Assembly: GCA_964432245.1 (NCBI GenBank)
Contig: CAYSMV010000471.1
Coordinates: 1 to 28,851, forward strand
Direction of reading: 5' to 3'
DNA from: an uncultured Desulfobacterales bacterium
Lineage (GTDB): Bacteria > Desulfobacterota > Desulfobacteria > Desulfobacterales > Desulfosudaceae
DNA length: 28,851 nucleotides
In this document: one piece after another, positions 6,200-27,110 of the stretch
Layout: the number at the start of each line of letters is the position of its first letter
Numbering within the stretch: the stretch's first letter is position 1
Notes under the pieces: model-generated
What the model saw: the letters and a program-made list of their open reading frames with translations, nothing else
What the model was told of the DNA's origin: nothing
Databases searched by the model: none
Program-made: the position numbers and the translations under genes

Positions 6200-6202
6200 G
6201 GA

Positions 6203-6574: not shown

Positions 6575-6578
6575 TTTA

Positions 6579-8751: not shown

Positions 8752-8946
8752 TTCTTTCAAAAATATTTATTTTAACCATACGATTAAAATACAGTCTTTC
8801 TATAAAATTTTTATCGTCCGGTTTGACGTTTTCTTCTGAAAATCATCGCCTTCCAAAACAAACACCGCCATTGGCCTAAAATCAATTGACATTCATCGCA
8901 TTACAAAATAATACAGCAGCATACATAAAATGATGGGGGAAGCGTA

Positions 8947-9354: not shown

Positions 9355-9369
9355 AATGCGAGCTAACCC

Positions 9370-9726
9370 GTGAAGTATTATCTGGACGAAGATATCAGCC
9401 CCCGCGTGGCCGAGCTTTTGAGAAAAAACCGGGTTGAGGCCATAAGCGCCCATGAACAAGGGATGATAGGAACATCGGATGAGCAGCAACTTCTGGCTGC
9501 CGCCAAAGCCGGACGAGCCATGGTAACCAGAAACAGAAACGATTTTATTCGGCTAACCGTCAGCTTTTTCGAGGGACTGAAACCCCATCATGGATCGGTC
9601 ATAATCCCGCATTACATTCCAGGCCATGATTTTTCACTGATGGCCAGACTGCTGTCACACCTCGCCGACGAATATCCCAATGGTATGACGCCTTACACCA
9701 TAAAATTTCTGTCAATTGGTCCTTGA
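9370..9726 (+). CDS. DUF5615 family PIN-like toxin
   Basis: MKYYLDEDIS...SDEQQL..A...RAMVTRNRNDF...HHG; paired with DUF433 gene. Confidence 0.88.
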   Translation: MKYYLDEDISPRVAELLRKNRVEAISAHEQGMIGTSDEQQLLAAAKAGRAMVTRNRNDFIRLTVSFFEGLKPHHGSVIIPHYIPGHDFSLMARLLSHLADEYPNGMTPYTIKFLSIGP

Positions 9727-9743
9727 CTTTTCCCCATCAGGGT

Positions 9744-13000: not shown

Positions 13001-13346
13001 CTTTTTGTTTTCTGCAAAACCACTCTGAACTGAATGAGCCCTTATTTTTTAGAAAATAACTGACCATGGATTTAAACAAGAGACACATCATTATTCTTGG
13101 CTTTCTAAAAAATTTCAGCGGGCAAAAAAATTTTTTGCGCAGTTTGATGAAACCTTCGGCTAAGGCGACCTACCTGCTCCGGGACAAAAATGCCTCTAAA
13201 CTATTATGGAAATACAAGGTCGGGATATCAGGCGGCTTGTACATAAACAGCCGATGAATTATAAAAATCTTCCAGAGACAGAAATGAAGCCATACTTAGA
13301 TTTTATGTGGGGATACCGAAAAGCACTGACGGAGTAATGTAAATAT

Positions 13347-13760
13347 ATGAATAGATGTATTTTCTGCGATATCATTGCCGGTAAGTCGGAGGCGGCATTT
13401 GTCTACAGGGACAAAAAGATTTCAGCCTTCATGGACATCCGGCCGATTAATTCCGGGCATCTCATAATCGTTCCGAACACGCACGCCGAAGATTTGTCTA
13501 TTATTTCTGAATCGACCGGCGCCCGGATGTTCAATACAGCCCGACTGCTGGCCACTGCCATCAAAGCAAGCGGTATACGCTGTGAAGGCATTAATCTTTT
13601 CCTTGCCGATGGCAAGGCCGCCGGTCAGGAAATTTTTCACATACATCTACATGTTATTCCTCGCTTCAGAAACGACGGATTCAAACTTAAATTCGATACC
13701 CTGGAAACATCCCTATCGAATTTGCGACAGACGGCGGAACTTATTCAAAAGCACTTGTAG
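13347..13760 (+). CDS. HIT family nucleotide hydrolase
   Basis: CIFCDII, AFMDIRPINSGHLIIVP, GQEIFHIHLHVIPR histidine triad. Confidence 0.95.
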   Translation: MNRCIFCDIIAGKSEAAFVYRDKKISAFMDIRPINSGHLIIVPNTHAEDLSIISESTGARMFNTARLLATAIKASGIRCEGINLFLADGKAAGQEIFHIHLHVIPRFRNDGFKLKFDTLETSLSNLRQTAELIQKHL

Positions 13761-14315: not shown

Positions 14316-14843
14316 TCATTCATACAAAAATCCCGGAATCCATAAATGCTTTTGCCCCGTTCTGTAGGTAAAGGCCTCTTTAACCGGGTCATTCAGCGCT
14401 ATGACGCCTCTGGCCTGTCCGGCAGCCGCGATACAATCGGCGTGGATAAAAAATTCCAGGCCGGTTAACTTTATTTCAAAGCAGATCTCTATATCCTCAA
14501 CGAATTTTGATATGGCCGGCAGCACGGCGCTTTGCAGATAGTCAACCGGCGTGTACCAATATTGGCCAAAAAACAATTTTTTGAGGGCCGGCCCAGCGGG
14601 CGCACTTTTATGAAATATTACCTCAAAACAAGGCACCGGTTCTTTCATTGTTTTCCTGATAAAATTTTCAAACATTTCCCTGGTCCGGGAGAGCGAACTG
14701 ATGGTTATTTCAAACGTCATGACATCAGAGAACTGGCCGCCTCTTTTTATTTTTGTGGCCAGATAAAGATCTGCCGGAAGTCTTTTACCCCAGGGCAACA
14801 TATACTCCAGAAATTCAATGCCGCCTGTTTCCATTTCTATCAT
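14316..14843 (-). CDS. hypothetical protein
   Basis: AGGAGG RBS 7 nt before ATG 14843; protein-like composition; no family recognised. Confidence 0.65.
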   Translation of the reverse strand: MIEMETGGIEFLEYMLPWGKRLPADLYLATKIKRGGQFSDVMTFEITISSLSRTREMFENFIRKTMKEPVPCFEVIFHKSAPAGPALKKLFFGQYWYTPVDYLQSAVLPAISKFVEDIEICFEIKLTGLEFFIHADCIAAAGQARGVIALNDPVKEAFTYRTGQKHLWIPGFLYE

Positions 14844-15135
14844 TGGTTCGCCTCCTTGTAGGTGCATATTGTCAGACTTTTACCCGCAGGCCGGTTCAAA
14901 AAATGATCGGATAAAAATTATGCCTCCCTGTAATATTAAAGACGGATCAGAATGATATATATGACAACGATAAAAAGCCATCGATAAAATAATTGTGTAG
15001 AACAGACAGGGTAATTGACATAAAATTTCATTTTTCCCGTTTATAGATATATTATGACCAATCCATAAAAAATAATACTGTGTTTCGTTATTATTCCAGG
15101 GATGATTTGTTCTTGATGCCGGATCGGTGGGCCTG

Positions 15136-15170
15136 TGTCGCAATTCGTCATCCCGCCAAGTGGAGCGAAA
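15136..15170 (+). repeat. 35-bp imperfect direct repeat, copy 1
   Basis: TGTCGCAATTCGTCATCCCGCCAAGTGGAGCGAAA. Confidence 0.8.
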
Positions 15171-15299
15171 CGGTGCCCGACCTGACGAAGCAAGCCCCGC
15201 TTAAAAACGGCATGATGGACAATAATCCTGAACTAAAATAATAGCTGGCATGCAATTTGAGAGTAAACACATGACATAACACTGAAGGTTAAACAAATG

Positions 15300-15981
15300 A
15301 AAAACATTGCAGAAATTGCGATTGACCCCGACCTGTCCAATGAAACCGGCAAAGGTTTCATGGCCAGGGGGCGACCGGAGGTAAGCAGCCTGACGAATAG
15401 TGTCCGGCGTTTACACCGGTTAAGGCGTGAAGACAGCCGCCGTGGTTCTTTGACAGACAGCTTAGTTGCAGCAGTAAAGATGAGACAGAGTAGCATCAGA
15501 CGTGCTCGATTCCGCTTGAATATAAACGTGTTCCCGGCAGTTGCCGCGGATATGAAGCCTTTTGACGCTACCCCCGTTTTCACGGACACGTTGAAAACGG
15601 GCAGCCAGCCGTCCCCGTCGTTCCATCCCTGTATGGGAACAATTGCACGGCCGGCTTACAGACGGTGCCAGTTCAGCGATTTCTCCGGCGGGAGCGATCG
15701 GGCACCGTGCCCGGCATCCACTCAAACCGCCAAGGATGCCTTTGGGCGGGCCTTCTCACGGCTCTCTATTTGTTCTGAATCGTCGCATTTAACCTGGAAT
15801 CAGGTTCAGGGGTCGGCTATTTGCCCCGTGTTCAGATTATCCCCGTAACAGGGTGCTGAAACGCCGCTCCCCGGACTTGAATTCATCGACGGGAAGCGGC
15901 AAGCAGCACGCACTCTGTCTTGGCCAAATAAGGGCCGGAAGGACAACAGGCATCATTTACATCCTTCCGGCTTTTATTTTT
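15300..15981. ncRNA. candidate large structured non-coding RNA (family unassigned)
   Basis: Seven stems found by eye, including a three-way junction and a compound long hairpin; overlapping ORFs look spurious; ends in a terminator-like hairpin. Confidence 0.45.
15934..15981 (+). terminator. intrinsic terminator-like hairpin
   Basis: GCCGGAAGGA-N18-TCCTTCCGGC followed by TTTTATTTTT. Confidence 0.6.
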
Positions 15982-16084
15982 AAAATTACCGTCTGCCGTC
16001 CTTAAACAAAATGAAAAACAATGCGTTTTGTGATACAAAATAACAGCCGCAAAAAAAAAACGTTATGCCCGACCTTGAAGGCCA

Positions 16085-16118
16085 TGTCGTAATTCGTCAT
16101 CGGCCAAGTGGAGCGAAA
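16085..16118 (+). repeat. direct repeat copy 2, followed by degenerate REP-like sequence
   Basis: TGTCGTAATTCGTCATCGGCCAAGTGGAGCGAAA; downstream CTGGATTC...GGAATAAC resembles the CTGGATTC...GGAATGAC hairpin at 6734-6761. Confidence 0.75.
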
Positions 16119-16229
16119 AATAGACGAAACTTCGTATATGAATCCGAGAATTAACTGGATTCTGATTTTCATCGGAATAACAAAACAACTTCAAACCGGA
16201 CTTTTTTTATAAATTCATAGCTTTTTTAG

Positions 16230-19200
16230 ATGACAGATCCGACCTCATTTAAAGACACCCGGCTCTGGCTGGCGCTGAAGGGATCCACGCCGGAAATTTT
16301 ATCCTGCCTGGATCAGCTCAACACCCTATCGGAGCTTTCCGTGGAAGAGCGTATGCCTTTTCTGGCGCGACTGCTGCCCTTAACCCGCCATGAGAACGCC
16401 CGGATCCGGAAAGCGGCCTTTCAGGCCTTATCAGGCGTGGCCGGTTATACCGGCCTGCAGACCCTGCTGACAGGCTGTTCCGATGCCGAACCGGAGACCC
16501 GGCAGGAAGCGCTGCTGGGTTTTCACGAATCCTGTCAGCATGACCCGAACCAGTGGATACTGGCCCTGTTTCATCCCGATGCGGACATGCGGCTTCTGGC
16601 ATTGGGGCAGAGAATACCCCGCGGAACAGAAGACCTGTTACTGGCCATCCTGCTTCTGTCAGCAGACCCGGCCTCCCAGATCCGCGTTGAAAAACATTTA
16701 AAGAACCATAACATACCGGTGGTGCATCTGCACTTACTGCTAAGGCTCCATAACAGCGGCCATGTTTCCACAGAAACGGCCAAGGCCCTGATTACCAGTC
16801 TTAATTGGACTTATTTGTTTGAAATTATCGACCTGCGTCACACAGATCTTACAGACATCCCTGACTACGCGTATTCTGCCGAAGAACCGCCCGAGCACAC
16901 GCCCCCGCCCCTCAGCGTGAACACCGCACCCCTGGCCTATCTCATCAGCCTTTTCTGGGAAAATCCCGCTGAAGAGACTGAACAGGACCAGGAAGAAGAG
17001 CCCTCGCCGCCCGAGGATTTCTGGAAAAAATTACACCGCTGCCCATCCATCTTCGATGGGGCAAGGTACGATCTTATCAAGGCCATTCATGCCGTTGCCG
17101 CCCACAAAAAATTCTGGATCCAGCCGGCGGCAGATACGCTGACAATGATCAGCATCCATGCCCTGGCCGACGAGCGCATCCCCCCTGAACTTCGGCGAAA
17201 ATCAAGCCTTACCATTATTAAACAGGCCGGAAATATAGAAAAAGACAGTCTTAAAACGATTAAGAAGATACTCAGGAACAAAATCTGTTTGGATGATTCT
17301 GGCCGACCGAACCTGACGGTTATCATCAGTGTACTATTAAGACTGGAACGCGCCGCCTCCGGCAGACCGCCTGACCCATACCGCATTTTGCTGAATTTAT
17401 TCGGTCTGGAGCCGATTGTCGACGCCGCAGTTCGCCAACCCCGGCTGGCAGGCTATCTGTTAATTCTGCCCGCTTCCCAGAAGAGCTGGTCAAGAAGGCT
17501 GATTTACCGCCGAATTAAGGACCATCCGCAAATCCCCGGGGCTTTGCTATATTGCGCCGTTATTGCCGGGACACTGCCCAGTCAATTGGGATTTCTGGCA
17601 GAATTAGACCCCGATATTCTCTTTAACATCTGCGAAGAGATATTTACACAGGAAGTCAGGCAAGAGATTCTCCTGTCCCGGCGAAAACTCCAGAAAACGG
17701 CTGAAATCATTGCCAACAAAATGACCGCTGAACAGGTTATCCCCATTGTCAGGCTCTGGTTTGACGTCCACTTACAGAAAGAAAGCTATTTCGGCCAGGA
17801 ACTGCTGGCCGATCTCGCGCGGGAAATATCAACCGACGCATTTCTGAAAGAGACAAAATCAGCCTCCCGCGAAGATCTGATAAAATTGCTGACATTAATT
17901 CCATGCTGCCCGGGCTTTCCTGTCGGTAAAGAGAACGCCCTGGCCATGGAACTCAAGCACCATCCGGATCCGTCTGTGGAGCGATGGTGCGCTGAGCGCG
18001 TCCTGAAAACTGATAAAAACGCCCGGGAGGATACTGAGGTTGACCCGTCCGCCCTGCTGTCGGACCAGGAAAAAAACAAGATTGTCTCTGCCGGCGACCT
18101 TGAGCTGAACGATCTCCTCCAGCCGGCTCTCAGGCACCAGCGGCAGGGCCTCTGCCGGACCTTGCTGGCGCGCCCGGCTCCTTACAGAGAGTCCGTTGAA
18201 GTCTGCGCCGCCGCCCTGAAAAGCCTTGATCCTCTGGAAGAGATAGATGCCGTGTTTCACCGGTATGGAAACAGCACCCCCTCTTTCCTGGAAAAACTGG
18301 ACCTTCTGATGGTCGGAAACAGCCGCCTTCCGGAATCGCTGTTCGGCAACTGCTTTCTATGCCTGTGGGAAGAACATTGCTTTGCCGCCGCCGGACAGAT
18401 AGAAAGCCTGCCCGGCGGTTTTACAGTTTTTATTGAAATCGGGGATAATCTGCGATCCGCGCCGATCAGGGATGTCATGTGGCTGACGCTGAAATACCTG
18501 GTGAGCATGTGGCGATTTCGCGACCTTGACAAACTAAAATCGATATTCACGCCGGATTTTGCGCACAAAATGGTGGACCATCTCACGGAAGGCAATGAAC
18601 CCGCGGCTAAAATCCTGATCAGAGCCTTTGAATCCGGTCTGCTTCCCTCACCAAGTATGACGAATGTCTCTCCGCGCGTTCGCTCCGAAATCCAGGATTA
18701 CCCGCCGAACATTCGTAAAATTCTAATGCCGTGGATTGACAGTACTGGGATCACGGGCAATTCCCTGCGGCTGACCGGAAAAAAGGACGAGCCTTCTAAA
18801 GAGATCACTCAAAAAATAACCGGGAGTATGGACACACAGTTTCTGCTCGGCTGCTGTCTGCATGCCAATGGCGGTGTGGTCAACGAGGCGGTCCTGCGCA
18901 TCATTGAGCTGGAAACGCCGCTCACAGGCCTGGCGCAACTGATGATCCGCGACCCGGCGCCTGACAGCATCGGCATTCTGACCGAGTCCATCAGCCTCTG
19001 GCCGGAAGGAGAAGCCCTGTCTATTCTGGAAAATGCCATCCCCCTGGCAACTACCCCGCTTGTCTCCCGCTTTAAGATCACTCTGGCCATGCTTGAGCGG
19101 GGATGCCGGCAATATGAGAAGCTGATATTTGAAATCCTGAACACCGAAACCGATTCTTTCTGGTTTCAGAAAAAAGACTGGGAGCGCCTCCTGAAACTGG

Positions 19201-21329
19201 GCCTTGATAAATCAACGCTGGTTGAAACCTGTGTCATCTCGCCGCAGCCCGTTATGTATCAGGAAGCAGTGCAGATCTTAAAGTTCAGCATTCGCATACC
19301 CCCGGACCGACGGATTAAGGCCCTGCGGTCATTTCTTGACCTGGGACGCAACCGTAAGCACACGGTCCGGCTGGAGGCCGCCCTCACCCTGGGACTCCTG
19401 GGTTGTCCGGATGGCTGGCCGATTATACTGACAGCCTTGCTGGCAGGTGAAATCGAGGGTGAAAAAACTATTGCATTTATTCTCGATTTGCCGGGTCTGC
19501 ATGAAGAAATGATTGAATCCGCGCTGATTGCCGGGGCTCATTTTTTCCCCTCCCGCTTGCTGACCGGCTTTTTAAAAAAGTGCTCCGCGCCATTGCTGAA
19601 AACCATTATCAGAACAACCAGAGATCCGGAATTGCGCCAGGCGGCCATCAACCACATGATCAAGGATGACCGGCACAACCCGACGATACTGCATTTAAGT
19701 AACATCTGCAAAGAGGGCATGCAGACCGGATTTGCCTTAACCGGCAAGCGCTTTCAGGTAAAAATGCTGGAAACCGGCGAGATCGGCTATACCCGCCTGG
19801 AGGGAAATGTTATCTACGCCACCCCCATTCCGGTAATCAGCCAGGCGCCTGAAGGCAGCCGGATCGTGCGCGGGGTGATTCTCCACGAAATCGGCCACCA
19901 CCTCTTTCATGCCGGCAAAGAGAGCCGCGAGGCCCATGAGGCGGCCGTGAATGAAAAAATAACGGACCTGTTGAATATCGTAGAAGATGAGCACCTGGAG
20001 CGTAATCTGCGCGTCAGGAACGAAACCTGGGGCGATGATTTTAAAAAGCTCGCCGCCTACGCCTTTCAGCACGCCGATCGTGAGGCCGATGCCGGCGACC
20101 TGCTCCGGGCCCTTGAGATCGACGCCTTTCCCGTTTTAACCGGAACCGTCATTAAAGTGGGCGTAAAAGAGGGCTGCGTCTCCTTCAATGCCGGCGGCAT
20201 CTGGCAGAAACTGGAAGAAAACCAAAACAGTTTTTCCCGGTTCATGCGCGCCCTTCGCATGGGACTCGGCAATCGTTATAACGACCCTAAAGTGGCCGCC
20301 GGGCTGAATCTGTTTAAACGCGGTTTCAAAAAGGCCTCTCCTGAACGGCTGCTTGAAATCGCGCGGGAGCTGAAAAAAATCTTCGGCCCGCGGGCCGCTC
20401 TATTGGAGAACCTGTCCTGGGAGGGCCTCTCTGAAGACGCGGAAACCCTGCTGATCGGCAGTGACGGCATTACCCAGGAAAATATTGACCGGGCCCTGGC
20501 CCGGACAGAAAAAAACGACAGTCTTTCCGGGAAAAAGGTAATAATTTACAATCAAAGCAAGGATACCTATTTTGAAAAAATTACCCGGATTGTCCGGCTG
20601 CCTTTTGACCTGAAAGCACATCAGGAATATGCCCAAAAAACCATGCGCGCCTCACGGCAGCTGCGTCCTTTTTTCCGGAACCTGGGGGTGCGATATCTGA
20701 AAGAACGCTTCCGCCTTTCCGGACGGCGGCTGGATCGCTCCCGCCTGCAGAAAATGGTTATCTACGGGGAACCACGGCTCATGATCGCCCGGATCATCAA
20801 ACCCGTAACCGATCTGTTCCTGAGCATTATTATCGACTGCTCCGAATCCATGAACCACCACAAAAACATTGAAAAAGCCAAACAGTTCGGCACCCTGTTA
20901 GCCGAGTCAACAGTCGGGGTAGACGGCCTTGATGTCCGCATTTTCGGCTTCACCGACCGGGTTATATACGATGCCGGCACACCCTTCCGCTGCGCCGTGT
21001 CGGCACTGGAAGCGGAAAACGGAAATAACGACGCGGCCGTCCTGTGGCACGCGGCCCGAATCGCTTCCGCCAGCCGCCGCGCGGTCAAGCTCCTGGTCAT
21101 GATCAGCGACGGCGCGCCGACCGCCTGCAGCACAACCGCCCTGCGCCTGCTGGTGCAGAGCCTTGCCCGGCAGCAGATATGCTGCGCCCAGATCGCACTG
21201 CGGAAATTAGACCCGGAAGATATCTGCTTCCCCTGGTACATCGTGCTGGACGAAGACGACCTTGCTTCATCCGTGAGTAAGTTCGGAGCAATTATGATAA
21301 AACTGGTAAAGCAGGCCATGGGAGGGTAG
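16230..21329 (+). CDS. 1699-aa HEAT/alpha-solenoid + zincin metallopeptidase-like + vWA protein (MoxR partner)
   Basis: HEAT-like repeats (HENARIRKAAFQAL, DAEPETRQEAL); VILHEIGHHLFH (H1219) plus LLNIVEDEHLE; MIDAS IIDCSESM (D1536) and MISDGAP; no clear SD. Confidence 0.87.
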   Translation: MTDPTSFKDTRLWLALKGSTPEILSCLDQLNTLSELSVEERMPFLARLLPLTRHENARIRKAAFQALSGVAGYTGLQTLLTGCSDAEPETRQEALLGFHESCQHDPNQWILALFHPDADMRLLALGQRIPRGTEDLLLAILLLSADPASQIRVEKHLKNHNIPVVHLHLLLRLHNSGHVSTETAKALITSLNWTYLFEIIDLRHTDLTDIPDYAYSAEEPPEHTPPPLSVNTAPLAYLISLFWENPAEETEQDQEEEPSPPEDFWKKLHRCPSIFDGARYDLIKAIHAVAAHKKFWIQPAADTLTMISIHALADERIPPELRRKSSLTIIKQAGNIEKDSLKTIKKILRNKICLDDSGRPNLTVIISVLLRLERAASGRPPDPYRILLNLFGLEPIVDAAVRQPRLAGYLLILPASQKSWSRRLIYRRIKDHPQIPGALLYCAVIAGTLPSQLGFLAELDPDILFNICEEIFTQEVRQEILLSRRKLQKTAEIIANKMTAEQVIPIVRLWFDVHLQKESYFGQELLADLAREISTDAFLKETKSASREDLIKLLTLIPCCPGFPVGKENALAMELKHHPDPSVERWCAERVLKTDKNAREDTEVDPSALLSDQEKNKIVSAGDLELNDLLQPALRHQRQGLCRTLLARPAPYRESVEVCAAALKSLDPLEEIDAVFHRYGNSTPSFLEKLDLLMVGNSRLPESLFGNCFLCLWEEHCFAAAGQIESLPGGFTVFIEIGDNLRSAPIRDVMWLTLKYLVSMWRFRDLDKLKSIFTPDFAHKMVDHLTEGNEPAAKILIRAFESGLLPSPSMTNVSPRVRSEIQDYPPNIRKILMPWIDSTGITGNSLRLTGKKDEPSKEITQKITGSMDTQFLLGCCLHANGGVVNEAVLRIIELETPLTGLAQLMIRDPAPDSIGILTESISLWPEGEALSILENAIPLATTPLVSRFKITLAMLERGCRQYEKLIFEILNTETDSFWFQKKDWERLLKLGLDKSTLVETCVISPQPVMYQEAVQILKFSIRIPPDRRIKALRSFLDLGRNRKHTVRLEAALTLGLLGCPDGWPIILTALLAGEIEGEKTIAFILDLPGLHEEMIESALIAGAHFFPSRLLTGFLKKCSAPLLKTIIRTTRDPELRQAAINHMIKDDRHNPTILHLSNICKEGMQTGFALTGKRFQVKMLETGEIGYTRLEGNVIYATPIPVISQAPEGSRIVRGVILHEIGHHLFHAGKESREAHEAAVNEKITDLLNIVEDEHLERNLRVRNETWGDDFKKLAAYAFQHADREADAGDLLRALEIDAFPVLTGTVIKVGVKEGCVSFNAGGIWQKLEENQNSFSRFMRALRMGLGNRYNDPKVAAGLNLFKRGFKKASPERLLEIARELKKIFGPRAALLENLSWEGLSEDAETLLIGSDGITQENIDRALARTEKNDSLSGKKVIIYNQSKDTYFEKITRIVRLPFDLKAHQEYAQKTMRASRQLRPFFRNLGVRYLKERFRLSGRRLDRSRLQKMVIYGEPRLMIARIIKPVTDLFLSIIIDCSESMNHHKNIEKAKQFGTLLAESTVGVDGLDVRIFGFTDRVIYDAGTPFRCAVSALEAENGNNDAAVLWHAARIASASRRAVKLLVMISDGAPTACSTTALRLLVQSLARQQICCAQIALRKLDPEDICFPWYIVLDEDDLASSVSKFGAIMIKLVKQAMGG

Positions 21330-21443
21330 AAAGACTGTCAGAAATGCACGCTTTTTGATATATGAAAAAATTCGGGGGGATACATTCCTAGTTTTAACTG
21401 TATACGTGCACGTGCACGAGTCCGCGTAAAGGAGAAACCACCT

Positions 21444-22568
21444 ATGTCATCCAGATTGAAAACCGAGGATATTGCCGTCGGCCAGTTAATGGAGACCACC
21501 TTCTGGGTTAATCCCGTCAAAGAATCCAAGTTCCGGTTCCGCGCCACCCACTTAAACGGCAAAAAAGCCCCCAAGGTCATTCTCAGCGACGACCCGGGGA
21601 TTAGGCCGGGCATCCCCTGCCTGGTCAAGATCGAAGCCATCAGGAAAGCGGAGCGGGATGACCGCGGCCAGATCGAGGTAAGCCTGCAGCACCTGCTGGA
21701 TTTAAACCTCAAGGGAATTTATCTGGATCCCGTCATCAGTATTAAACTTCAGGTCCTGCTGGAAAGCGGTTTGAATATCCTGCTGGACGGCCCCCAGGGA
21801 TGCGGCAAAACCGTTCTGGCCCGGAGCATCGCCGAATCCCTGGGCATGGAATTCATTTTTTACAACTGCAGCGCCGTGATCGAAGCCACCGACTTTCTGG
21901 CCAGCCTGCAAGTCGTGTCCGAAGAGGGACGGACGGTCACCCGGTTCATCAAAACCGATGTCCTGAAAGCCCTGGAAGAAGCCTGTGAACACCCCCGGAG
22001 AAAATACCTGATATTCCTTGACGAGTTCAACCGCTGCCCGGAGAGCGCCCGGAACGCGCTCATGCCGGTGCTGGACCACACCCGGCGGATCTTCAACCCT
22101 GTCAGCAACACTTTCCTTCAGATCGAGGACAACATCCAGTTCATCGCGGCCGTTAATCGCGGCAACGAATTTTCCGGCACCTTCGGCATTGACGCCGCCC
22201 AACTGGACCGGTTCGCCCCCCTGCAGATGGATTATCCGCCGGAAGAGGCGGAAGTGGACCTGATGACGGAAAGGCACCCGGAAGTCAGCAAAACGCGGAT
22301 CAAACAGGTGGTGAAGATCGCCAACCTCGTCCGCGCCAGCCATGAGCTCAACAAAGGCCTGTCGGTGCGGGCCGTGGATGAAACCTGCATATACCTGAAA
22401 CATCCCCTGCTGGAAAATAACACAGCTAAAATGCTTCCGGAAATCCTGAAGTCCGCTTTCTGTGGCCGCTTCCCCGGCCGCTGGGACGACCCCGATTCCG
22501 ATGCCGGCCTGGTCTGGAGCATCATCAGGGGAAGTATAGAAAAGTCCGACAAATGCTGCCGCAGGTAA
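21444..22568 (+). CDS. MoxR-family AAA+ ATPase with ~95-aa N-terminal extra domain
   Basis: Walker A GPQGCGKT, Walker B IFLDEFNR, AAVNRG, AQLDRF; AAAGGAG RBS. Confidence 0.93.
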   Translation: MSSRLKTEDIAVGQLMETTFWVNPVKESKFRFRATHLNGKKAPKVILSDDPGIRPGIPCLVKIEAIRKAERDDRGQIEVSLQHLLDLNLKGIYLDPVISIKLQVLLESGLNILLDGPQGCGKTVLARSIAESLGMEFIFYNCSAVIEATDFLASLQVVSEEGRTVTRFIKTDVLKALEEACEHPRRKYLIFLDEFNRCPESARNALMPVLDHTRRIFNPVSNTFLQIEDNIQFIAAVNRGNEFSGTFGIDAAQLDRFAPLQMDYPPEEAEVDLMTERHPEVSKTRIKQVVKIANLVRASHELNKGLSVRAVDETCIYLKHPLLENNTAKMLPEILKSAFCGRFPGRWDDPDSDAGLVWSIIRGSIEKSDKCCRR

Positions 22569-22570
22569 AA

Positions 22571-22918
22571 TGTAGTGGTCAAGTAAAAACGGACACAAAA
22601 TTAAGCAACTTTTAAATACTGTTCTTTCTCATAAGCCATAGGAGACAGATAGCCCAAGGTAGAATGAAGCCGTATACTGTCATAGAAGGTGATATAATCC
22701 AATATTTCCATCTCGGCTTGTTTCCGGGTTGCGAAACTATAGGCTGTCAGCCGTTCTGATTTCAGAGAGCGGAAAAAGCGTTCTGTGGGGGCATTGTCCC
22801 AACAGTTTCCTTTTTTCCAACCTATACCTGTACTGTTTCCGTTCCTTGACCATGTGAAGCTCCTTTCATGTTGTGAATCAGAGCTTGGCACATTGTCCAG
22901 TTCTTGGGGACCACCGCG
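22571..22918 (-). mobile_element. internally deleted IS3-family element (348 bp, both ends retained)
   Basis: IR TGTAGTGGTC-N10-GGACA at 22571 and CGCGGTGGTC-N10-GGACA on minus from 22918; RBS + orfA start MVKERKQY (ATG 22853) joined to orfB C-terminus KGNCWDNAPTERFFRSLKSE...HSTLGYLSP. Confidence 0.88.
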
Positions 22919-23083
22919 TAAGAGGACGGCAGGGCCGGTCGGCAAAGGGGATGACCGGTCCGGGCAAGTGTCAGGAAGAAACACGACCTTGTCGGCGCTA
23001 AGGTCATGCGGCAACCAGGAGCGGAGCCTGCCTGTCGGCTCGGCTGAAAGGTTAAGTATCTGCATATGGATATCAACCGGCAT
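22919..23083 (-). pseudogene. N-terminal fragment of an RtcB-like RNA ligase family protein
   Basis: GGAG RBS; MQILNL...WLPHDLSADKVVFLPDTCPDRSSPLPTGPAVLL resembles the RtcB LPD..PxG N-terminal motif; cut by the IS3 remnant. Confidence 0.55.
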
Positions 23084-23158: not shown

Positions 23159-24160
23159 TTATGATAATTTTTCGAGATTAAATCTCACATGCATATGATC
23201 GGTATGCGGCGCCGCCCCGTCTCCGGCGTAACGCAGAACCTTCTGCAACCGGAGAACTGTTGCCGATGGCATTCGCTGCTTTTTCGCCTCCTGGATAAGT
23301 AATTCTTCTATAAAAGGCTCTACCAGAATCATATCAACTCCGGCTGCCGTTTGCTCCAGCAGAGACACAATCAGAGCAAGATTGGCCGGGCAGTCAAATT
23401 GCCGGCCCTGGCATACCCCATTCTTGTTATAGCGCAACCGGTAGCCGATACGAGCCAGAGAAGGACGTTGCGGATATAAACGGCCTTTTCCGTCACGCCC
23501 GATATACAAAAGATCGACATCATAGCCATGCTTGTGGCTGAGATGTTTGAGAAGGCTGCCTCCATAAGCGCCGCTTATATCAAAATAAGCCATGCCGGCG
23601 CCGGGATGACGTGCGGCAAAATCCGCTGAGGCTACCTTCAAGGCGGATACAAGCGGCTTCTGGCCGTAGCACCGGCCGGTCAGCCAGAACATGGGGTTTT
23701 GCACAAACAGATTTTCCTGCCAAAACGGCATCAGAACAAGGTCCGGATGATGAGGCGCGACCAGACGATAGAAATAGCAGCCAGGGAAAAAAAGCAGAAT
23801 CAGCAGGAGGATCAGTCCGGCTGTTACGATCAACAATCGTTTCGATTTCTTCTGATGAAGAGAAGTCGCAGCGGCGTCCCCCACATCTGACGGTTGCTGA
23901 CCGCATTCACCGCCCGATGTTAGCGGCGATCCGGAATAAACGGCCGAGGTATTGGATGAATATCTGCTTAACTTATGAATGTGAAAACCCTGCCAGCACA
24001 CCAGAAAAATCAGCATCAGGGTAAAAACCGGAAATATCACCAGAAAAAGAATGAAGTTTATTTCCGTATAAGTAATTCCCAGCAAATTGGCAAGATTCAC
24101 GGTAAAATCAGTGCAGAACCAATATAAGGTTCGAATTATCCCGTCTATTTTATCCATCAT
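23159..24160 (-). CDS. membrane-anchored MepA-like (LAS/M74) murein endopeptidase
   Basis: Two hydrophobic segments, then DISGAYGGSLLKHLSHKHGYDVD and HTDHMHVRF Zn motifs. Confidence 0.8.
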   Translation of the reverse strand: MMDKIDGIIRTLYWFCTDFTVNLANLLGITYTEINFILFLVIFPVFTLMLIFLVCWQGFHIHKLSRYSSNTSAVYSGSPLTSGGECGQQPSDVGDAAATSLHQKKSKRLLIVTAGLILLLILLFFPGCYFYRLVAPHHPDLVLMPFWQENLFVQNPMFWLTGRCYGQKPLVSALKVASADFAARHPGAGMAYFDISGAYGGSLLKHLSHKHGYDVDLLYIGRDGKGRLYPQRPSLARIGYRLRYNKNGVCQGRQFDCPANLALIVSLLEQTAAGVDMILVEPFIEELLIQEAKKQRMPSATVLRLQKVLRYAGDGAAPHTDHMHVRFNLEKLS

Positions 24161-24167
24161 TCCGGCC

Positions 24168-24575
24168 CTATTTCATTCCGCTTTGCAAATCTTTTATTCG
24201 CCTTCTCTGGGCCAGTACCAGTACGATCAGAAAGAGCCATGGTAAGGGGAAGCCGATCAGATAAATCAAGATACAGGCCTGCTTGTAGTTCAGGCCGGGG
24301 AGGTTGCCCAGAAGCGCAATATTGCCATTATAAAGAGTACCCGCTGCCTTCACAATAAAACTATTTTTCAACCCGGCATAACGCTGCTCAACATGCCGGC
24401 AGCCCTTGTCATGGCAGTATCTTGAACAACGATTTGGATCATATCCATGAGTAGGCGGCGGGGAAAAATGATTTACGAAAAACATGACGCTGAAACAAAA
24501 GAAAAGGCCGGCCATTAATACCAGCACCAGATCACGCACTATTTTAAATCCGAATTTGAGCACAACGGACCTCAC
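24168..24575 (-). CDS. hypothetical membrane protein
   Basis: Two TM segments flanking CSRYCHDKGCRH. Confidence 0.7.
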   Translation of the reverse strand: MRSVVLKFGFKIVRDLVLVLMAGLFFCFSVMFFVNHFSPPPTHGYDPNRCSRYCHDKGCRHVEQRYAGLKNSFIVKAAGTLYNGNIALLGNLPGLNYKQACILIYLIGFPLPWLFLIVLVLAQRRRIKDLQSGMK

Positions 24576-24600
24576 GCCCGGAATAAACTATTAACCGTAC

Positions 24601-26247
24601 TCACCTTTTTTTGACCACCCCGATCACATTGGGAATGGGCCACAGGGTCATGTTGCCATCATCCTCGAAAAAGCCGGTCTCATAACTGCCCGCCCAGTAT
24701 CGTTCCTTATCGCCTGATTTGACATAAAGGGATGCTTCCGGCCCGCCTTCAACGTACATGGCATTCCTGATATTAAGCGGAAGTGTTAAAAGAATATGGT
24801 TAAAATCATGCACCGAAAAAGGAGTCCGGCTGTGAATAAACAGCAGGCAGCCTTTTTTGTCCATGGCCACGGCAGCGATGCTGTATATTTTATCAGACTG
24901 CAGCCAGGTATTTTTTCCGTTAAGGCTGATCATCCTGAAATTCTGAATAACGGTATGATACTTATTAATAAGATCCTGCCAGTCCTTCTGATGATAGCGG
25001 TCGATGATCTGCACCGCCGGAACTGATTTGTTGGACGGGTTGAAGGCCAGAAAAGCGCCGAACCTGGAGTTGATCAGGCCGTTGTTGACGTGGCTGAAGT
25101 TTTTCATATAGCCCGTGCTGGTCTTGTGGTCCGTATCATACATACTGGCGTTGATAACTGCGACCAGGCCAAAAGAATCAGCCCAAGCTTTTGCGGTTTT
25201 GTTTTTGCCGCCGCGCTCCGAAGCCGAAAGCAGTTTGAGATCGTAAACGGCAGGATCAATCTTCAGAACCCTTATGGGGTAATTACAGATCTTTGACTTT
25301 TGCGGAGACTCAAACTCTCCCAGGAAAAGACCGTCAGCTATTTTCTCCCAGGCCGGCGCCTGAAGGGTAGCCCCATTTGAGAGTTGGTATCTGCCCTGGC
25401 TGTCGACGCGCATGTCCGGAAGTTGCCGGCTGGATTCAAAATAATCATACCCCGGCTTTAAATTTCCCCAGAGGGCGATCAACCCCGGCTGATCCGAATA
25501 ATCCCGCTTCAGTTGAGCCATGCCCTCATCGTTCAATCTTGTCGGAAAAATGTGGACCGGTATCTGTGTCTGGCCGTTTTCCCGGGACTCCACCGCCGCC
25601 AGGTACAACTCCTTGATTTTGTCGTCGGTAATAGGCAGACAGCCGATGGTCGCACAGGCGCCATGGATAAAGATATCACCGCCCAGCCTGCCCTGAACAC
25701 CGAGAATCCGGTCCGAACGATTGGGATAATCGATACGAAGGGATAGATGGTAGCTGCTGGTCGGATTAAACCCGCTGATATAATAAAAACCCTCGGGAAT
25801 CTGCCCGTCTCCTTCCTGCCGCTTCGGCCCCAGCGTCCCGGAAGCCGGCCCGGTGTTGCCGGGATAAGTACAAATATTATAGGCGGTAACCAGATCAAAT
25901 CGCGCGCCCGCGCCTGAACGCGCCCAGAGTTCCAGCCGGTTCTCTTTTTTAAACACCCGGATAAAAATACCGGCCGGCGGCCAGGCAAGCTTCTTGTCAG
26001 CAAAAAGGGCTTCAACCGCCGCCGCCTTTTCTTGAAAAGCCGTCCGCACCCGGCTGTACCTCAGCTGATCTGCCTTGAACTGCGCCTGCGCAGAATCAGG
26101 GATTAAAGATAAAACAAATATCAGCAGAAGCGCCTCCGCCAGCCGTTTTCCGGCCTGAACCCGGCTCCTTTCAGCCGCGGTTTTCCACCACTGCCTGGCA
26201 GAATTGTTGTCACGGATTTTGTAAAATGAGGCGCCAGCCTGATTCAT
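24601..26247 (-). CDS. YkuD-fold DpaA/YafK(LdtF)-like enzyme fused to phosphodiester glycosidase (NAGPA-like) domain
   Basis: GPKRQEGDGQIPEGFY, SYHLSLRIDYPN, IFIHGACATIGC (His/Cys); C-terminal VINASMY...AMYVEGGPEASL; ATG 26247 overlaps upstream stop (ATGA). Confidence 0.85.
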   Translation of the reverse strand: MNQAGASFYKIRDNNSARQWWKTAAERSRVQAGKRLAEALLLIFVLSLIPDSAQAQFKADQLRYSRVRTAFQEKAAAVEALFADKKLAWPPAGIFIRVFKKENRLELWARSGAGARFDLVTAYNICTYPGNTGPASGTLGPKRQEGDGQIPEGFYYISGFNPTSSYHLSLRIDYPNRSDRILGVQGRLGGDIFIHGACATIGCLPITDDKIKELYLAAVESRENGQTQIPVHIFPTRLNDEGMAQLKRDYSDQPGLIALWGNLKPGYDYFESSRQLPDMRVDSQGRYQLSNGATLQAPAWEKIADGLFLGEFESPQKSKICNYPIRVLKIDPAVYDLKLLSASERGGKNKTAKAWADSFGLVAVINASMYDTDHKTSTGYMKNFSHVNNGLINSRFGAFLAFNPSNKSVPAVQIIDRYHQKDWQDLINKYHTVIQNFRMISLNGKNTWLQSDKIYSIAAVAMDKKGCLLFIHSRTPFSVHDFNHILLTLPLNIRNAMYVEGGPEASLYVKSGDKERYWAGSYETGFFEDDGNMTLWPIPNVIGVVKKR

Positions 26248-27110
26248 CGTGCCGCTTTCACCTTCATCAGAAGCTGCATTTTGAAACAGACTACAATAAT
26301 GAAAAACGCAAGAACCCAGAAACCCGTATGTTCCGCCAATAATTGATAGATTGTCCCAGGAACGGTGATCCACCCGCTGTTACCAAAGGGCATCAAGCCA
26401 TATAGCATCAGGGCCTGAACCGTAAAAAGCACGACTTTAAAAAACAGGCAGATAACAAATAAATACCACACCGCCCTGAATATGCGAGGGGATGAACGCC
26501 TGCGGTCTTTCCCCTGTGGCAATCGAAGCAACAGATCCAGCACCATCACAAACGATAAAAGAGCAAGTACCGCCACGCAACCCCAGTTGATAATATAAGG
26601 TATCTGTCCGGCTTCAGCCGGGTCTGAAACACCGAAAGCGTCCTTCATGATCTGCACGATCTCCTGACTCGATGGCGACAACATTGTCACGCCCGGAACA
26701 ATTTCTTTAACATCTTTACCCTTTAATATGACGCCATCGGGTACAACCATGCCCGGCTTGTCAGGAAACAATAGATTGATGTAGCCTTCGCCGACCACTA
26801 AACCGTCTTTTTTAATTTCAGCCGACAGGCCTTTGGTCAGATAGTCTCTTTTTTCCGGATCGATATTGTCAATTTTCACCTGAATCAGCACGACTCCCGG
26901 AGACGGGCTATGCGGCGGGGCCGCCACCTGCCCTACTACTATTCCATCTCCCATCACCCGATCACCGACAGTAATCCCCCGGGCATCTTTGAATTGAAAA
27001 CTGATCGTCAAGGCATTTTGACATTTCTCGCCGGCACAGCCAGCTACCACACAAGCAATCATCGCAATTGCCAGCAGCGGTAAACAGCTTGTTCTGACTG
27101 AAATCTTCAC
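26244..27110 (-). CDS. MCE/MlaD-domain lipoprotein with three C-terminal TM helices
   Basis: Lipobox VVAGC; FKDARGITVGDRVMGDGIVVGQV MCE motif, GLVVGEGYINL; hydrophobic C-terminus; GGGAGG RBS. Confidence 0.78.
   Translation of the reverse strand: MKISVRTSCLPLLAIAMIACVVAGCAGEKCQNALTISFQFKDARGITVGDRVMGDGIVVGQVAAPPHSPSPGVVLIQVKIDNIDPEKRDYLTKGLSAEIKKDGLVVGEGYINLLFPDKPGMVVPDGVILKGKDVKEIVPGVTMLSPSSQEIVQIMKDAFGVSDPAEAGQIPYIINWGCVAVLALLSFVMVLDLLLRLPQGKDRRRSSPRIFRAVWYLFVICLFFKVVLFTVQALMLYGLMPFGNSGWITVPGTIYQLLAEHTGFWVLAFFIIVVCFKMQLLMKVKAAR

What the first reader, a model, noticed from the sequence alone, without database searches (positions are those of the whole stretch)
16230..22568. Giant HEAT-solenoid / zincin / vWA protein with dedicated MoxR ATPase
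Established: MoxR ATPases act with vWA partners, CobT/NorD-like partners can carry an HEXXH...NxxED peptidase-like domain, and MoxR-vWA pairs form the core of several NTP-dependent conflict systems. Seen: all these motifs are intact and preceded by ~1200 aa of HEAT-like solenoid. Inference: the solenoid is a sensor or scaffold for large invader or damaged complexes, with MoxR-powered activation of the protease. It sits in a defence-like island directly after the candidate ncRNA, so an RNA-protein link is conceivable but unsupported.
Basis: partly seen in the sequence, partly recalled or inferred. Interest (0 to 1): 0.75.

Follow-up and report, generated by a model that had tools for sequence, protein, structure and literature searches.

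The report
Giant adaptor, AAA+ motor, partner RNA
The 1,699-residue scaffold/protease/vWA protein and its AAA+ motor are real and conserved. In every genome searched they co-occur with a pseudoknotted small RNA that matches no Rfam family, which points to an RNA-protein machine that bacteria exchange horizontally.

Summary
Window 16230-21329 encodes a 1,699-aa protein: about 1,145 aa of HEAT-type solenoid, a zincin-like HEXXH domain, then a NorD/CobT/midasin-type vWA domain with a full MIDAS. Window 21444-22568 encodes a MoxR-class (AAA_5) ATPase with an unclassified N-terminal domain. The architecture has a nearly constant length in more than 200 species, mainly Polyangia and Planctomycetota.

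The unexpected result is the "candidate ncRNA". Window 15643-15768 is the core of a structured RNA with a loop-loop pseudoknot. Covariation is strong (94% of cells paired, against about 40% in slid controls). Rfam has no match.

The RNA lies near the giant gene in 65 of 70 loci. It is usually upstream on the same strand, sometimes divergent. In the other five genomes it occurs once elsewhere. Across 343 genomes the RNA and the proteins were present together (21) or absent together (322), with no discordant case.

No other neighbour is conserved. The module is absent from 40 relatives of the host, so it was acquired horizontally.

Best reading: an ATP-driven remodelling/protease machine with a trans-acting RNA cofactor. 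An anti-phage role is possible but untested. No known defence family matches.

The parts
15643..15768 (+). Core of a conserved structured RNA. Helices P1, P2, P3 and P4a/P4b, with a pseudoknot between the P3 loop (GGCGG, 15687-15691) and the P4 loop (CCGCC, 15727-15731), followed by hairpin P5.
   Evidence: Covariance model R1 scores 96.4 bits here, E 9e-15, and this is the only copy in the genome. Covariation is shown, the pseudoknot. Rfam has no match.
15364..15986 (+). Extended non-coding block conserved with the nearest relative (L004). It is probably the full RNA gene in this subfamily and is bounded by unconserved spacers.
   Evidence: nhmmer gives E 7e-198 (window) and 7e-200 (L004). 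Block identity is 71% and core identity 82%, against about 41% for both flanking spacers. The MFE z-score is -5.5.
15748..15774 (+). P5 hairpin followed by a U-rich tract. It looks like an intrinsic terminator placed directly after the core.
   Evidence: Terminator scan. A hairpin of variable sequence is present at this position in most homologues.
15934..15981 (+). Strong terminator-like hairpin (CCGGAAGGA...TCCTTCCGG) followed by a T-run, at the end of the extended block.
   Evidence: Seen in the sequence. The equivalent hairpin in L004 has a different stem sequence.
16230..21329 (+). Giant adaptor gene, 1,699 aa.
16230..19664 (+). HEAT/ARM-type alpha-solenoid, aa 1-1145, about 70 helices.
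   Evidence: Pfam HEAT_2 at aa 47-96. Model pLDDT 86.9. Foldseek matches to CAND1, importins and UTP10/20. The solenoid profile finds 365 proteins at E<=1e-30; the 150 best listed are nearly all 1,600-1,800 aa or shorter fragments.
19677..20609 (+). Zincin-like domain, about aa 1150-1460. HEIGHH is at nt 19884-19901 and N-x-x-E-D-E-H at nt 19974-19994.
   Evidence: The motif residues are invariant in 38 of 38 homologues. Zincin_1 hits are faint. Phage CobT-like/metallopeptidase look-alikes appear.
20700..21326 (+). vWA domain with a complete MIDAS (DCSES at nt 20835-20849; T1575; D1627), preceded by an invariant Arg-rich segment (aa 1495-1521).
21444..22568 (+). MoxR-class AAA+ ATPase, 374 aa. 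Contains Walker A (nt 21789-21812), Walker B (nt 22020-22025), sensor 1 N238, Arg finger R256 and sensor 2 R309.
   Evidence: Orthologues are 59-86% identical across phyla.
21444..21743 (+). N-terminal domain of the ATPase, aa 1-100. It is basic (pI about 9), strongly conserved and belongs to no known family.

Best explanation
This is a self-contained, horizontally mobile module of three genes.

1. A structured RNA with a pseudoknotted core of about 125 nt. In this window it is embedded in a conserved block of about 620 nt.
2. A 1,699-aa adaptor made of a HEAT solenoid, a zincin-like HEXXH domain and a NorD/CobT/midasin-type vWA domain.
3. A MoxR-class AAA+ ATPase with a unique basic N-terminal domain.

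Shown here: the anatomy of all three parts, the RNA's secondary structure, and the strict co-occurrence of the three parts even when their genes are unlinked.

Inferred from the family precedents NorQ-NorD, CbbQ-CbbO, CobS-CobT and Rea1: the ATPase forms a hexamer that grips the adaptor's vWA domain, and the MIDAS binds an acidic residue of a target. ATP hydrolysis then pulls on the adaptor, so that a solenoid-bound client is remodelled and probably cut by the HEXXH site.

Inferred from the genomics: the RNA acts in trans as a subunit or cofactor of the complex, as scaffold, specificity element or on/off regulator. It is not merely a 5' leader.

The biological role is accessory. It is probably stress- or conflict-related, but that is not established.
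For: The architecture and its invariant catalytic, MIDAS and ATPase residues are. The whole C-terminal module matches phage 'CobT-like' metallopeptidase-vWA proteins at E 1e-15. Such proteins are described as co-chaperones of MoxR ATPases (PMC7824862). The vWA finger-in-pore mechanism for NorQD is in PMC13036017.

Protein pair. The ATPase is adjacent in 55 of 71 loci. A single orthologue is present elsewhere in each of the 3 whole genomes searched among the 8 loci where it is missing.

RNA structure:
- On a plain MAFFT alignment of 59 sequences, 86% of cells are paired against 39-48% in slid controls. 27 of 31 pairs show double changes, and 0 of 500 shuffles reach the observed values.
- On the CM alignment of 66 sequences, 94.5% are paired and 23 of 26 pairs show double changes.
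- The pseudoknot was not modelled by the CM. Even so, 18 of 25 sequences with a minority loop pentamer carry its exact complement, and only 4 carry the majority CCACC.

RNA-protein association:
- All 66 CM hits in 1.35 Mb lie in loci that hold the module, 65 of them close to the giant gene or the ATPase gene (L036: about 5.7 kb upstream). 65 of 70 loci with upstream room have one.
- The 5 remaining genomes each have exactly one copy elsewhere, next to unrelated genes.
- In 151 Polyangiales-like genomes, the same 19 carry the ATPase and the RNA.
- In 151 Pirellulales-like genomes, only the same single genome carries both.
- In the host's own lineage, 0 of 40 relatives carry either.

Evidence for independent transcription. 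The RNA is on the opposite strand in L016, L068 and L072 and in G445, and it is on other contigs in several genomes. In the window the conserved block is bounded by unconserved spacers (41% identity) and ends in terminator-like hairpins 244 nt before the ATG.

Split form. In L075 the order is RNA, then ATPase, then a separate solenoid gene, with a separate 744-aa zincin-vWA gene. All parts stay together when the fusion is broken.
Against: There is no transcript, binding or phenotype data. Physical RNA-protein contact is inferred from co-occurrence only.

In most loci the RNA is upstream on the same strand as the giant gene, which is also what a cis-acting leader would look like. The P5 hairpin followed by a U-tract after the core resembles a riboswitch terminator.

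The solenoid is acidic overall (median pI 5.8), so it is not an obvious RNA binder. Only the C-terminal module (pI 9.4) and the ATPase N-domain (pI 9.0) are basic.

The zincin fold was not tested on its own. Related genomes are not independent, so the perfect concordance overstates statistical weight.
Confidence: 0.55

Rival explanations
1. The RNA is a cis-regulatory leader, such as a riboswitch or a protein-binding attenuator, that controls transcription of the giant-ATPase operon. The two proteins act alone as a MoxR-vWA chaperone/protease.
For: The RNA lies on the same strand, typically 100-600 nt upstream of the giant gene, in about 60 of 66 hits. The compact pseudoknotted core followed by a hairpin, and here a U-tract, looks like an aptamer with a terminator.
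Against: The RNA is on the opposite strand in L016, L068, L072 and G445. It is hundreds of kb away or on other contigs in G041, G598, G599, G401, G403 and G379, with unrelated downstream genes, yet it is still present only where the proteins are. In L075 it precedes the ATPase rather than the zincin-vWA gene. In the window a second strong terminator and an unconserved 244-nt spacer separate it from the ATG.
Confidence: 0.2
2. The pair is an anti-phage or abortive-infection system. The solenoid senses large invader or damaged complexes, and the MoxR ATPase then activates the protease. The RNA could be an antitoxin-like inhibitor or a decoy.
For: The distribution is patchy and horizontally spread: 0 of 40 relatives, 13% of one order and under 1% of another. 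In this window the module sits in a variable region with a CapP-like M78 peptidase plus HTH, an IetA-like AAA protein, PIN and DUF433/DUF5615 toxin-antitoxin genes and an integrase fragment. The solenoid diverges much faster (21-26% identity for all but the two nearest relatives) than the ATPase (59-68%), as sensors often do. MoxR-vWA pairs are cores of predicted conflict systems (PMC7159879).
Against: PADLOC has no model hit. There is no conserved effector or third protein, so the VMAP ternary pattern is absent. The module was not found in GenBank phages or IMG/VR. The genes are scattered in several Planctomycetota and Polyangia genomes. Each genome has a single copy with very strong purifying selection on the ATPase and the RNA. 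No phenotype data exist.
Confidence: 0.3
3. The pair is a dedicated maturation or metal-insertion chaperone for one metabolic enzyme, in the manner of CobST, NorQD, CbbQO or CoxDE. The HEXXH site would be a metal-handling or propeptide-processing site.
For: The closest solved vWA relatives by sequence are CobT (E 7e-6) and by fold NorD. The ATPase scores best with GvpN, CobS and NorQ-type models.
Against: No metabolic enzyme gene recurs next to the module in about 80 loci. The CobT equivalog score is 15.6 bits against a cut-off of 759. None of those systems has a 1,150-aa solenoid or an associated RNA.
Confidence: 0.1

Closest known systems
NorQ-NorD and CbbQ-CbbO (MoxR-class AAA+ hexamer with a vWA adaptor)
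   Same: Both have an AAA_5/MoxR-type ATPase encoded next to a protein whose C-terminal vWA domain has a full MIDAS. The vWA fold is closest to NorD (Z 19.0; Foldseek E 1.6e-8). The likely docking is finger-in-pore (PMC13036017).
   Different: The adaptor here is 2-3 times longer, with a 1,150-aa HEAT solenoid and an HEXXH domain. The ATPase has an extra N-terminal domain. No client enzyme gene lies nearby. A dedicated RNA co-occurs.
CobS-CobT, and the phage 'CobT-like' metallopeptidase-vWA / MoxR pairs of jumbo and other phages (PMC7824862)
   Same: The C-terminal 575 aa (zincin-like domain plus vWA) align over their whole length to phage CobT-like proteins (BFVD E 1e-15). The best PDB sequence hit of the vWA domain is CobT. 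The phage family is proposed to be a MoxR co-chaperone with peptidase activity.
   Different: It is not a CobT equivalog (15.6 bits against a 759 cut-off). There is no sequence-level match in 50,697 phage genomes or in IMG/VR. The solenoid and the RNA are absent from the phage proteins as far as seen.
Midasin/Rea1 (eukaryotic AAA+ remodeller of pre-60S RNPs)
   Same: Both combine a dynein/MoxR-clade AAA module, a long helical region and a C-terminal MIDAS domain. The vWA fold here scores highest with Rea1-MIDAS (Z 19.3) and MDN1-MIDAS (Z 18.1). Both are linked to an RNA-containing context.
   Different: This system has one AAA module per polypeptide, encoded separately, rather than six fused ones. 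Midasin has no HEXXH domain. Midasin's top rank in the PDB sequence search comes from summing several AAA domains, at about 26 bits each. No special kinship is shown.
Ro60/Rsr with Y RNA (HEAT-repeat ring plus vWA protein bound to a dedicated small RNA)
   Same: A helical-repeat protein with a MIDAS-bearing vWA domain is paired with a dedicated structured small RNA, often encoded nearby. Ro60 chains appear among the Foldseek hits of the C-terminal model.
   Different: There is no TROVE match. The RNA is unrelated to Y RNA (no Rfam hit). Ro60 has no AAA+ partner and no peptidase domain. RtcB is not linked here. This is an analogy only.
vWA-MoxR-VMAP ternary conflict systems (PMC7159879)
   Same: Both have a MoxR-vWA core. 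The vWA proteins in those systems often carry HEAT or TPR repeats and occasionally a metallopeptidase. They are enriched in Myxococcota-like multicellular bacteria.
   Different: There is no VMAP gene and no effector or EAD-type domains. The third partner here is an RNA, not a protein.

Membership tests
MoxR-class (AAA_5) AAA+ ATPases | The AAA_5 profile scores above the Pfam cut-off. | tested here: met
   PF07728 scores 61.6 bits against a cut-off of 22, E 1.1e-16, over aa 111-257.
MoxR-class (AAA_5) AAA+ ATPases | Intact Walker A, Walker B, sensor 1, Arg finger and sensor 2. | tested here: met
   G116-T123, D193/E194, N238, R256 and R309 are invariant in 28 orthologues.
MoxR-class (AAA_5) AAA+ ATPases | Helix-2 beta-hairpin insert and pre-sensor-1 hairpin. 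| not tested
vWA domain with MIDAS (NorD/CobT/CbbO/midasin type) | A DxSxS motif plus downstream Thr and Asp. | tested here: met
   D1536, S1538, S1540 and D1627 are invariant, and T1575 is conserved in at least 90% of sequences.
vWA domain with MIDAS (NorD/CobT/CbbO/midasin type) | A vWA fold with the extra N-terminal elements of the AAA-docking subtype. | tested here: met
   Rea1-MIDAS Z 19.3 (205 aa aligned, rmsd 3.2) and NorD Z 19.0 both start about 70 residues before the generic vWA matches, which score Z 16.9 or less.
Cobaltochelatase CobT (TIGR01651) | Equivalog score above the cut-off. | tested here: not met
   15.6 bits against a cut-off of 759.
Zincin metallopeptidases | HEXXH plus a third ligand on the following helix. 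| tested here: met
   H1219, E1220 and H1223, and E1254 with D1253 and H1255, are invariant in 38 of 38 sequences.
Zincin metallopeptidases | Zincin fold, or a family profile match. | tested here: inconclusive
   Pfam Zincin_1 is found only at E 0.06 in 5 of 38 members. The PDB profile search found nothing. The model shows a helix / 3-strand sheet / HEXXH helix / Glu helix order, but this domain could not be searched on its own.
vWA-MoxR-VMAP ternary conflict systems | A conserved third VMAP gene, with or without effector domains. | tested here: not met
   Clustering all ORFs of about 80 loci found no recurrent third protein.
Known anti-phage systems (PADLOC-DB 2.0) | A match to a system protein model. 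| tested here: not met
   Only P-loop-local or E of about 1e-3 hits were found.
Ro60/TROVE | A TROVE domain profile match. | tested here: not met
   A Pfam scan of the whole protein at E<=0.1 returns only HEAT_2 and HEAT.
Any Rfam 15 RNA family | A covariance-model match. | tested here: not met
   No hit at gathering score in the window or in 8 other loci, and none at E<=1 in window 14800-16300.
Riboswitch / cis-acting leader | The RNA always lies in the 5' UTR of the gene it controls, on the same strand. | tested here: not met
   It is on the opposite strand in L016, L068, L072 and G445, and unlinked in at least 5 genomes with unrelated downstream genes.
Midasin | Six tandem AAA modules and a MIDAS domain in one polypeptide. 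| tested here: not met
   The protein has a single AAA module of 374 aa and is encoded by a separate gene.

The most novel reading that the evidence does not exclude
The RNA is an obligate subunit, so the module would be a previously unrecognised class of bacterial ribonucleoprotein: an RNA-containing MoxR/vWA AAA+ protease-remodeller. The pseudoknotted RNA would provide scaffolding, target specificity or an activity switch. It would be a prokaryotic counterpart of machines such as Ro60-Y RNA or midasin acting on RNPs. It would also be the first MoxR-vWA system known to me that has a dedicated RNA partner.
Probability: 0.5. Interest if true: 0.9.

Novelty: new variant of a known kind. Interest (0 to 1): 0.82.

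Why it matters
MoxR-vWA pairs are among the most common yet least understood AAA+ systems. Their known clients are single enzymes such as Rubisco, NOR and chelatases.

This module adds two things that I found in none of the described systems: a constant-length solenoid of about 1,150 aa and a dedicated structured RNA. The RNA's presence tracks the proteins perfectly across at least five phyla, even when the genes are unlinked.

If the RNA is a subunit, this opens a new type of bacterial RNP and gives a defined three-gene system for reconstitution. It also adds a well-supported new family to the catalogue of structured bacterial RNAs.

If the module turns out to be a defence or stress system, it would be an RNA-controlled protease machine of a new design.

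Tried and rejected
1. Midasin kinship. Midasin tops the PDB sequence search for the ATPase (E 1.6e-21). The profile search shows that this is the sum of several AAA domains at about 26 bits each, so I make no claim of special kinship.

2. Phage origin. tblastn of the C-terminal module against 50,697 phage genomes found nothing. The ATPase found only distant AAA proteins at 25-30% identity. A scan of IMG/VR with the ATPase alignment found none. The single RNA-pattern hit there is a 28-nt chance match without the proteins.

3. Rfam. There is no match at any threshold tried.

4. PADLOC gave nothing for the two proteins.

5. ATPase N-domain. Pfam, a PDB profile search and the protein atlas gave no usable hit.

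6. Zincin region. A PDB profile search gave nothing and Pfam only faint Zincin_1 hits.

7. Solenoid as an obvious RNA binder. Its net charge is negative, so this is not supported.

8. ORF 15297-15848 (183 aa), which overlaps the RNA. I rejected it as a gene. Its only 'homologue' is the same DNA block in L004, and the conservation pattern is base-pair covariation with indels that are not multiples of three.

9. A cluster of 13 neighbouring ORFs turned out to be Ser/Thr kinases at variable positions, which are common in these phyla, not a partner.

10. RtcB linkage. RtcB is on another contig. ORF 7516-8751 matches no family.

11. A sigma-70 promoter scan around the RNA found nothing on the + strand. 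This is not informative for this phylum.

12. Complex prediction was not used. A pass for an ATPase-vWA pair would mostly reflect likeness to solved NorQD-type complexes, and the tool cannot include RNA.

13. My first visual estimate of 85-90% identity for the RNA block was too high. The measured values are 71% for the block and 82% for the core.


Full report
**What is at the coordinates.**
The window is one whole 28.9-kb contig of a 2.77-Mb, 71%-complete MAG. Its TsaD is closest to Desulfobacterales-type proteins. ORF 16230-21329 (+) encodes 1,699 aa. After a 114-nt gap, ORF 21444-22568 (+) encodes 374 aa.
- HEIGHH at aa 1219-1224
- N-I-V-E-D-E-H at aa 1249-1255
- DCSES at aa 1536-1540
- Walker A (GPQGCGKT) and Walker B (DE) in the second protein

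Pfam sees only HEAT_2 at the N-terminus of the large protein. It calls the small protein AAA_5, the dynein/MoxR subfamily, at 61.6 bits against a cut-off of 22. NCBIfam gives a sub-threshold GvpN-type hit for the ATPase and a faint CobT hit in the vWA region.

**The giant protein is a real, constant architecture.**
A word-indexed search found more than 150 relatives. Nearly all are 1,600-1,780 aa and align end to end at 30-56% identity. A scan of one genome per species found relatives in at least 204 species. Most are Polyangia (Polyangiaceae, Nannocystaceae, Sandaracinaceae, Kofleriaceae) and Planctomycetota (Pirellulaceae, Gemmatales, Phycisphaerae). There are scattered cases labelled Verrucomicrobiales, Holophagales, Thermoanaerobaculia, Vulcanimicrobiota and Gammaproteobacteria. 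A profile of the solenoid alone, run against 1.84 billion cluster representatives, found 365 proteins at E<=1e-30. The 150 best listed are again nearly all 1,600-1,800 aa or shorter fragments. The solenoid therefore essentially occurs only in this architecture.

In a 38-sequence alignment the HEXXH residues, the N/D/E/H cluster 30 residues later and the MIDAS residues are invariant. Conservation is graded. For all but the two nearest relatives, the solenoid is 21-26% identical to the window protein and the C-terminal 575 aa are 37-47% identical. The ATPase is 59-68% identical across phyla, and 86% to the closest relative.

**Folds.**
The first 1,150 aa model confidently (pLDDT 86.9, pTM 0.71) as about 70 helices. 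They match generic HEAT/ARM solenoids such as CAND1, importin-beta family members and UTP10/UTP20, with low TM scores, as is usual for flexible solenoids.

The C-terminal 575 aa model at pLDDT 81.5. The vWA part is closest to Rea1-MIDAS (Z 19.3), NorD (Z 19.0) and human MDN1-MIDAS (Z 18.1). These matches begin about 70 residues earlier than those to ordinary vWA domains, which score Z 16.9 or less (Foldseek). By sequence the nearest solved relative is CobT (E 7e-6).

Against predicted viral structures, the whole two-domain module aligns to phage 'CobT-like'/VWFA/metallopeptidase proteins of 570-780 aa at E down to 1e-15. The language-model atlas also places the zincin-like region next to viral CobT/peptidase clusters. 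Iyer et al. describe such phage proteins as metallopeptidase-vWA co-chaperones of a MoxR ATPase (PMC7824862).

The zincin fold could not be searched in isolation. Support for it is the invariant motif, the secondary-structure order and faint Zincin_1 hits.

Midasin's top rank for the ATPase in the PDB comes from summing several AAA repeats. I do not read kinship into it.

**The ATPase is a dedicated partner.**
In 55 of the 71 related loci with room downstream, its gene starts within about 200 nt of the giant gene's stop. In 8 loci it lies 1-6 kb away or on the other strand. In 8 it is missing from the locus. I searched the whole genomes of three of those 8, and each contains exactly one orthologue (61-67% identity) on another contig or megabases away.

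All AAA+ catalytic residues are invariant. So is much of a 100-aa basic N-terminal domain that matches no Pfam, PDB or atlas entry.

**No other protein neighbour is conserved.**
I clustered all ORFs from about 80 loci. Beyond the two proteins this gave only antisense artefacts of the ATPase gene and a set of Ser/Thr kinases at variable positions.

The module is accessory. It was not found in 40 relatives of the host, including two 99%-complete genomes of the same genus. It is present in 10 of 301 genomes of the Myxococcota-like phylum sample, 19 of 151 of the Polyangiales-like order sample and 1 of 151 of the Pirellulales-like order sample. In this genome it was therefore acquired horizontally. 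Its closest relative is in a MAG labelled Wenzhouxiangella (56% and 86% identity).

**The RNA.**
I aligned the window's upstream region with the nearest relative. This showed a non-coding block (15364-15986) conserved at 71% identity, and 82% in its core. That is comparable to the ATPase CDS (76%) and higher than the giant CDS (64%). The spacers on both sides are at about 41%.

nhmmer then found weaker matches upstream of the giant gene in other phyla. Iteration brought in 59 of 70 loci. The shared core of about 125 nt folds into these elements:
- P1 (7 bp), which encloses P2 (5 bp) and a capped stem-loop with the nearly invariant sequence CUC-N-GGYGG-GAG-C
- a two-part hairpin, P4a/P4b, with a conserved UUU bulge
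- a variable hairpin, P5
- an optional extra hairpin in the P4 loop of some members

On a structure-blind MAFFT alignment, 86% of cells pair, against 39-48% when partners are slid. 27 of 31 pairs show compensatory double changes, and no shuffle out of 500 reaches any observed measure. On the covariance-model alignment of 66 sequences the figures are 94.5% paired and 23 of 26 pairs.

The P3 loop pairs with the P4 loop. The model does not encode this pseudoknot. Nevertheless GGUGG goes with CCACC, GGCGG with CCGCC, GAUGG with CCAUC (10 of 10) and GGUAG with CUACC. Of the 25 sequences with a minority pentamer, 18 carry its exact complement and only 4 carry the majority one.

Rfam 15 has no match in the window at E<=1 (14800-16300), none at gathering score across the whole window, and none at gathering score in eight other loci. 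Literature searches found no description.

**The RNA tracks the proteins.**
The model finds 66 hits in 1.35 Mb of loci on both strands. All lie in loci that hold the module, and 65 of them lie close to the giant gene or the ATPase gene (L036's hit is about 5.7 kb upstream). 65 of 70 loci with upstream sequence have one. L004 has two copies.

Most hits are on the same strand, 100-600 nt upstream. Three are divergent (L016, L068, L072). In L075 the RNA precedes the ATPase.

The five genomes without a linked copy each have exactly one copy elsewhere. Those copies sit beside unrelated genes: a DUF900 hydrolase, PSCyt2/PSD1, a cupin, Leu/Phe-tRNA-protein transferase and a carboxyltransferase.

In the same 151 Polyangiales-like genomes, the RNA is found in exactly the 19 that have the ATPase, once each. 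In at least three of them (G379, G401, G403) it is on a different contig although the ATPase contig has room for a linked copy. In the 151 Pirellulales-like genomes only the single carrier has it. In the host's lineage only the host has it. That makes 21 genomes with both, 322 with neither and none discordant. Relatives are not independent, so this is not a formal P value.

A divergent sister system (ATPase 47% identical, reversed gene order) has no detectable copy of this RNA.

A split variant in a Thermoanaerobaculia MAG encodes, in order, RNA, ATPase and a separate solenoid gene. It also has a separate 744-aa zincin-vWA gene. All four parts stay together when unfused.

**In this window.**
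The core is 15643-15768. P5 (15748-15764) is followed by a U-rich tract. A second, strong terminator-like hairpin with a T-run ends the conserved block at 15981. Its counterpart in L004 has a different stem sequence. The 632-nt block folds with z = -5.5, and the MFE recovers the covariation-supported helices. ORF 15297-15848, which overlaps the RNA, is not a gene.

**How it probably works.**
The anatomy and the association are shown. The rest is inferred from NorQD, CbbQO, CobST and Rea1 (PMC13036017; PMC3495828). In that picture:
- The ATPase hexamer binds the vWA domain. The invariant Arg-rich stretch before the MIDAS is a candidate pore finger.
- The MIDAS engages an acidic residue of a client.
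- The solenoid provides a large binding surface.
- The invariant HEXXH site probably cleaves.

Divergent and unlinked copies still track the proteins, so I favour a trans-acting role for the RNA as subunit, specificity element or switch (about 0.55-0.6). A cis leader or riboswitch is the main rival (about 0.2).

Which part binds the RNA is open. The solenoid is acidic. The C-terminal module and the ATPase N-domain are basic.

**Biological role.**
The patchy, horizontally spread distribution and the fast-evolving solenoid fit a conflict or stress function. So does this window's surroundings: a CapP-like M78 peptidase plus HTH, an IetA-like AAA protein with DUF1257, PIN, a DUF433/DUF5615 pair, PcfJ and an integrase fragment.

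Several points argue against a defence role, or at least leave it unsupported. That context is not conserved elsewhere. No known defence model matches. No effector beyond the peptidase is present. The genes are scattered in several genomes. The system was not found in phage collections.

I put an anti-phage or abortive role at about 0.3.

**Verdict.**
The protein pair is a new variant of the MoxR-vWA kind. The associated RNA matches no Rfam family and no description I could find, yet has very strong comparative support. Together they make this a high-interest finding.

Noticed in passing
L004:5165-5290 and L004:7412-7537: The nearest relative (a MAG labelled Wenzhouxiangella) carries two copies of the RNA core about 2.2 kb apart upstream of its giant gene (84.5 and 82.2 bits). 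Every other genome searched has one.
   Followed up: partly
L075:7518-13434: This is a split form in a Thermoanaerobaculia MAG. On the minus strand lie the RNA (13291-13434), the ATPase (13070-11961) and then a separate solenoid gene. A 744-aa zincin-vWA gene (7518-9752, +) converges on them.
   Followed up: yes
G601 (loci L007 and L015): One Gemmatales MAG has two giant-protein paralogues but only one RNA and one ATPase, both next to the L015 copy. The second adaptor may share them, or the bin may be mixed.
   Followed up: partly
L105 (G299:C184:9566-14028): This is a divergent sister system. The ATPase (47% identical) is followed, not preceded, by a large protein with a related zincin-vWA C-terminus. 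The RNA model gives no hit in that genome.
   Followed up: partly
window 3075-6601 (-): The region holds DUF1257 plus a classic AAA protein (weakly IetA/IteA-like, E 8e-23), then a CapP-like M78 peptidase (E 8e-24) with an HTH partner. This resembles a CapH/CapP-type regulator pair beside an uncharacterised AAA module.
   Followed up: partly
window 6729-7085 (-), 8947-9726 (+): There is a PIN-domain ORF and a DUF433/DUF5615 (PIN-like) pair, which are likely toxin-antitoxin genes. PcfJ-like ORF 9744-11426 and integrase-core fragment 22601-23083 mark the region as variable or mobile.
   Followed up: no
window 7516-8751 (+): This 411-aa ORF has no Pfam, NCBIfam or PADLOC match. It is not RtcB. 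The genome's only RtcB match is on contig C228.
   Followed up: partly
L003 (ENA contig ctg86472l), whole locus: This contig carries the module (giant protein 38% identical, RNA at 7293-7416). It is otherwise full of short ORFs and apparently split genes: MetRS in two pieces, ADP-ribosylglycohydrolase and RtcB fragments, Macro, NIF, and an Apyc1-like lactamase. It could be a huge phage, an odd genetic code or a degraded region.
   Followed up: no
window 15575-15648 and the equivalent positions in other loci: In several phyla, 5' of the modelled core there is a further hairpin followed by a conserved (A)CAAUUG, then a variable hairpin (P0) just before P1. The RNA is therefore larger than the 127-nt model.
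   Followed up: partly
window 23159-26373 (-): This is a cell-wall-related cluster: an M74-like endopeptidase, and an ORF combining YkuD L,D-transpeptidase with an NAGPA phosphodiester glycosidase. MlaD-like and ClpA/ClpB/ClpV-like ATPase ORFs follow it. It is unrelated to the module.
   Followed up: no
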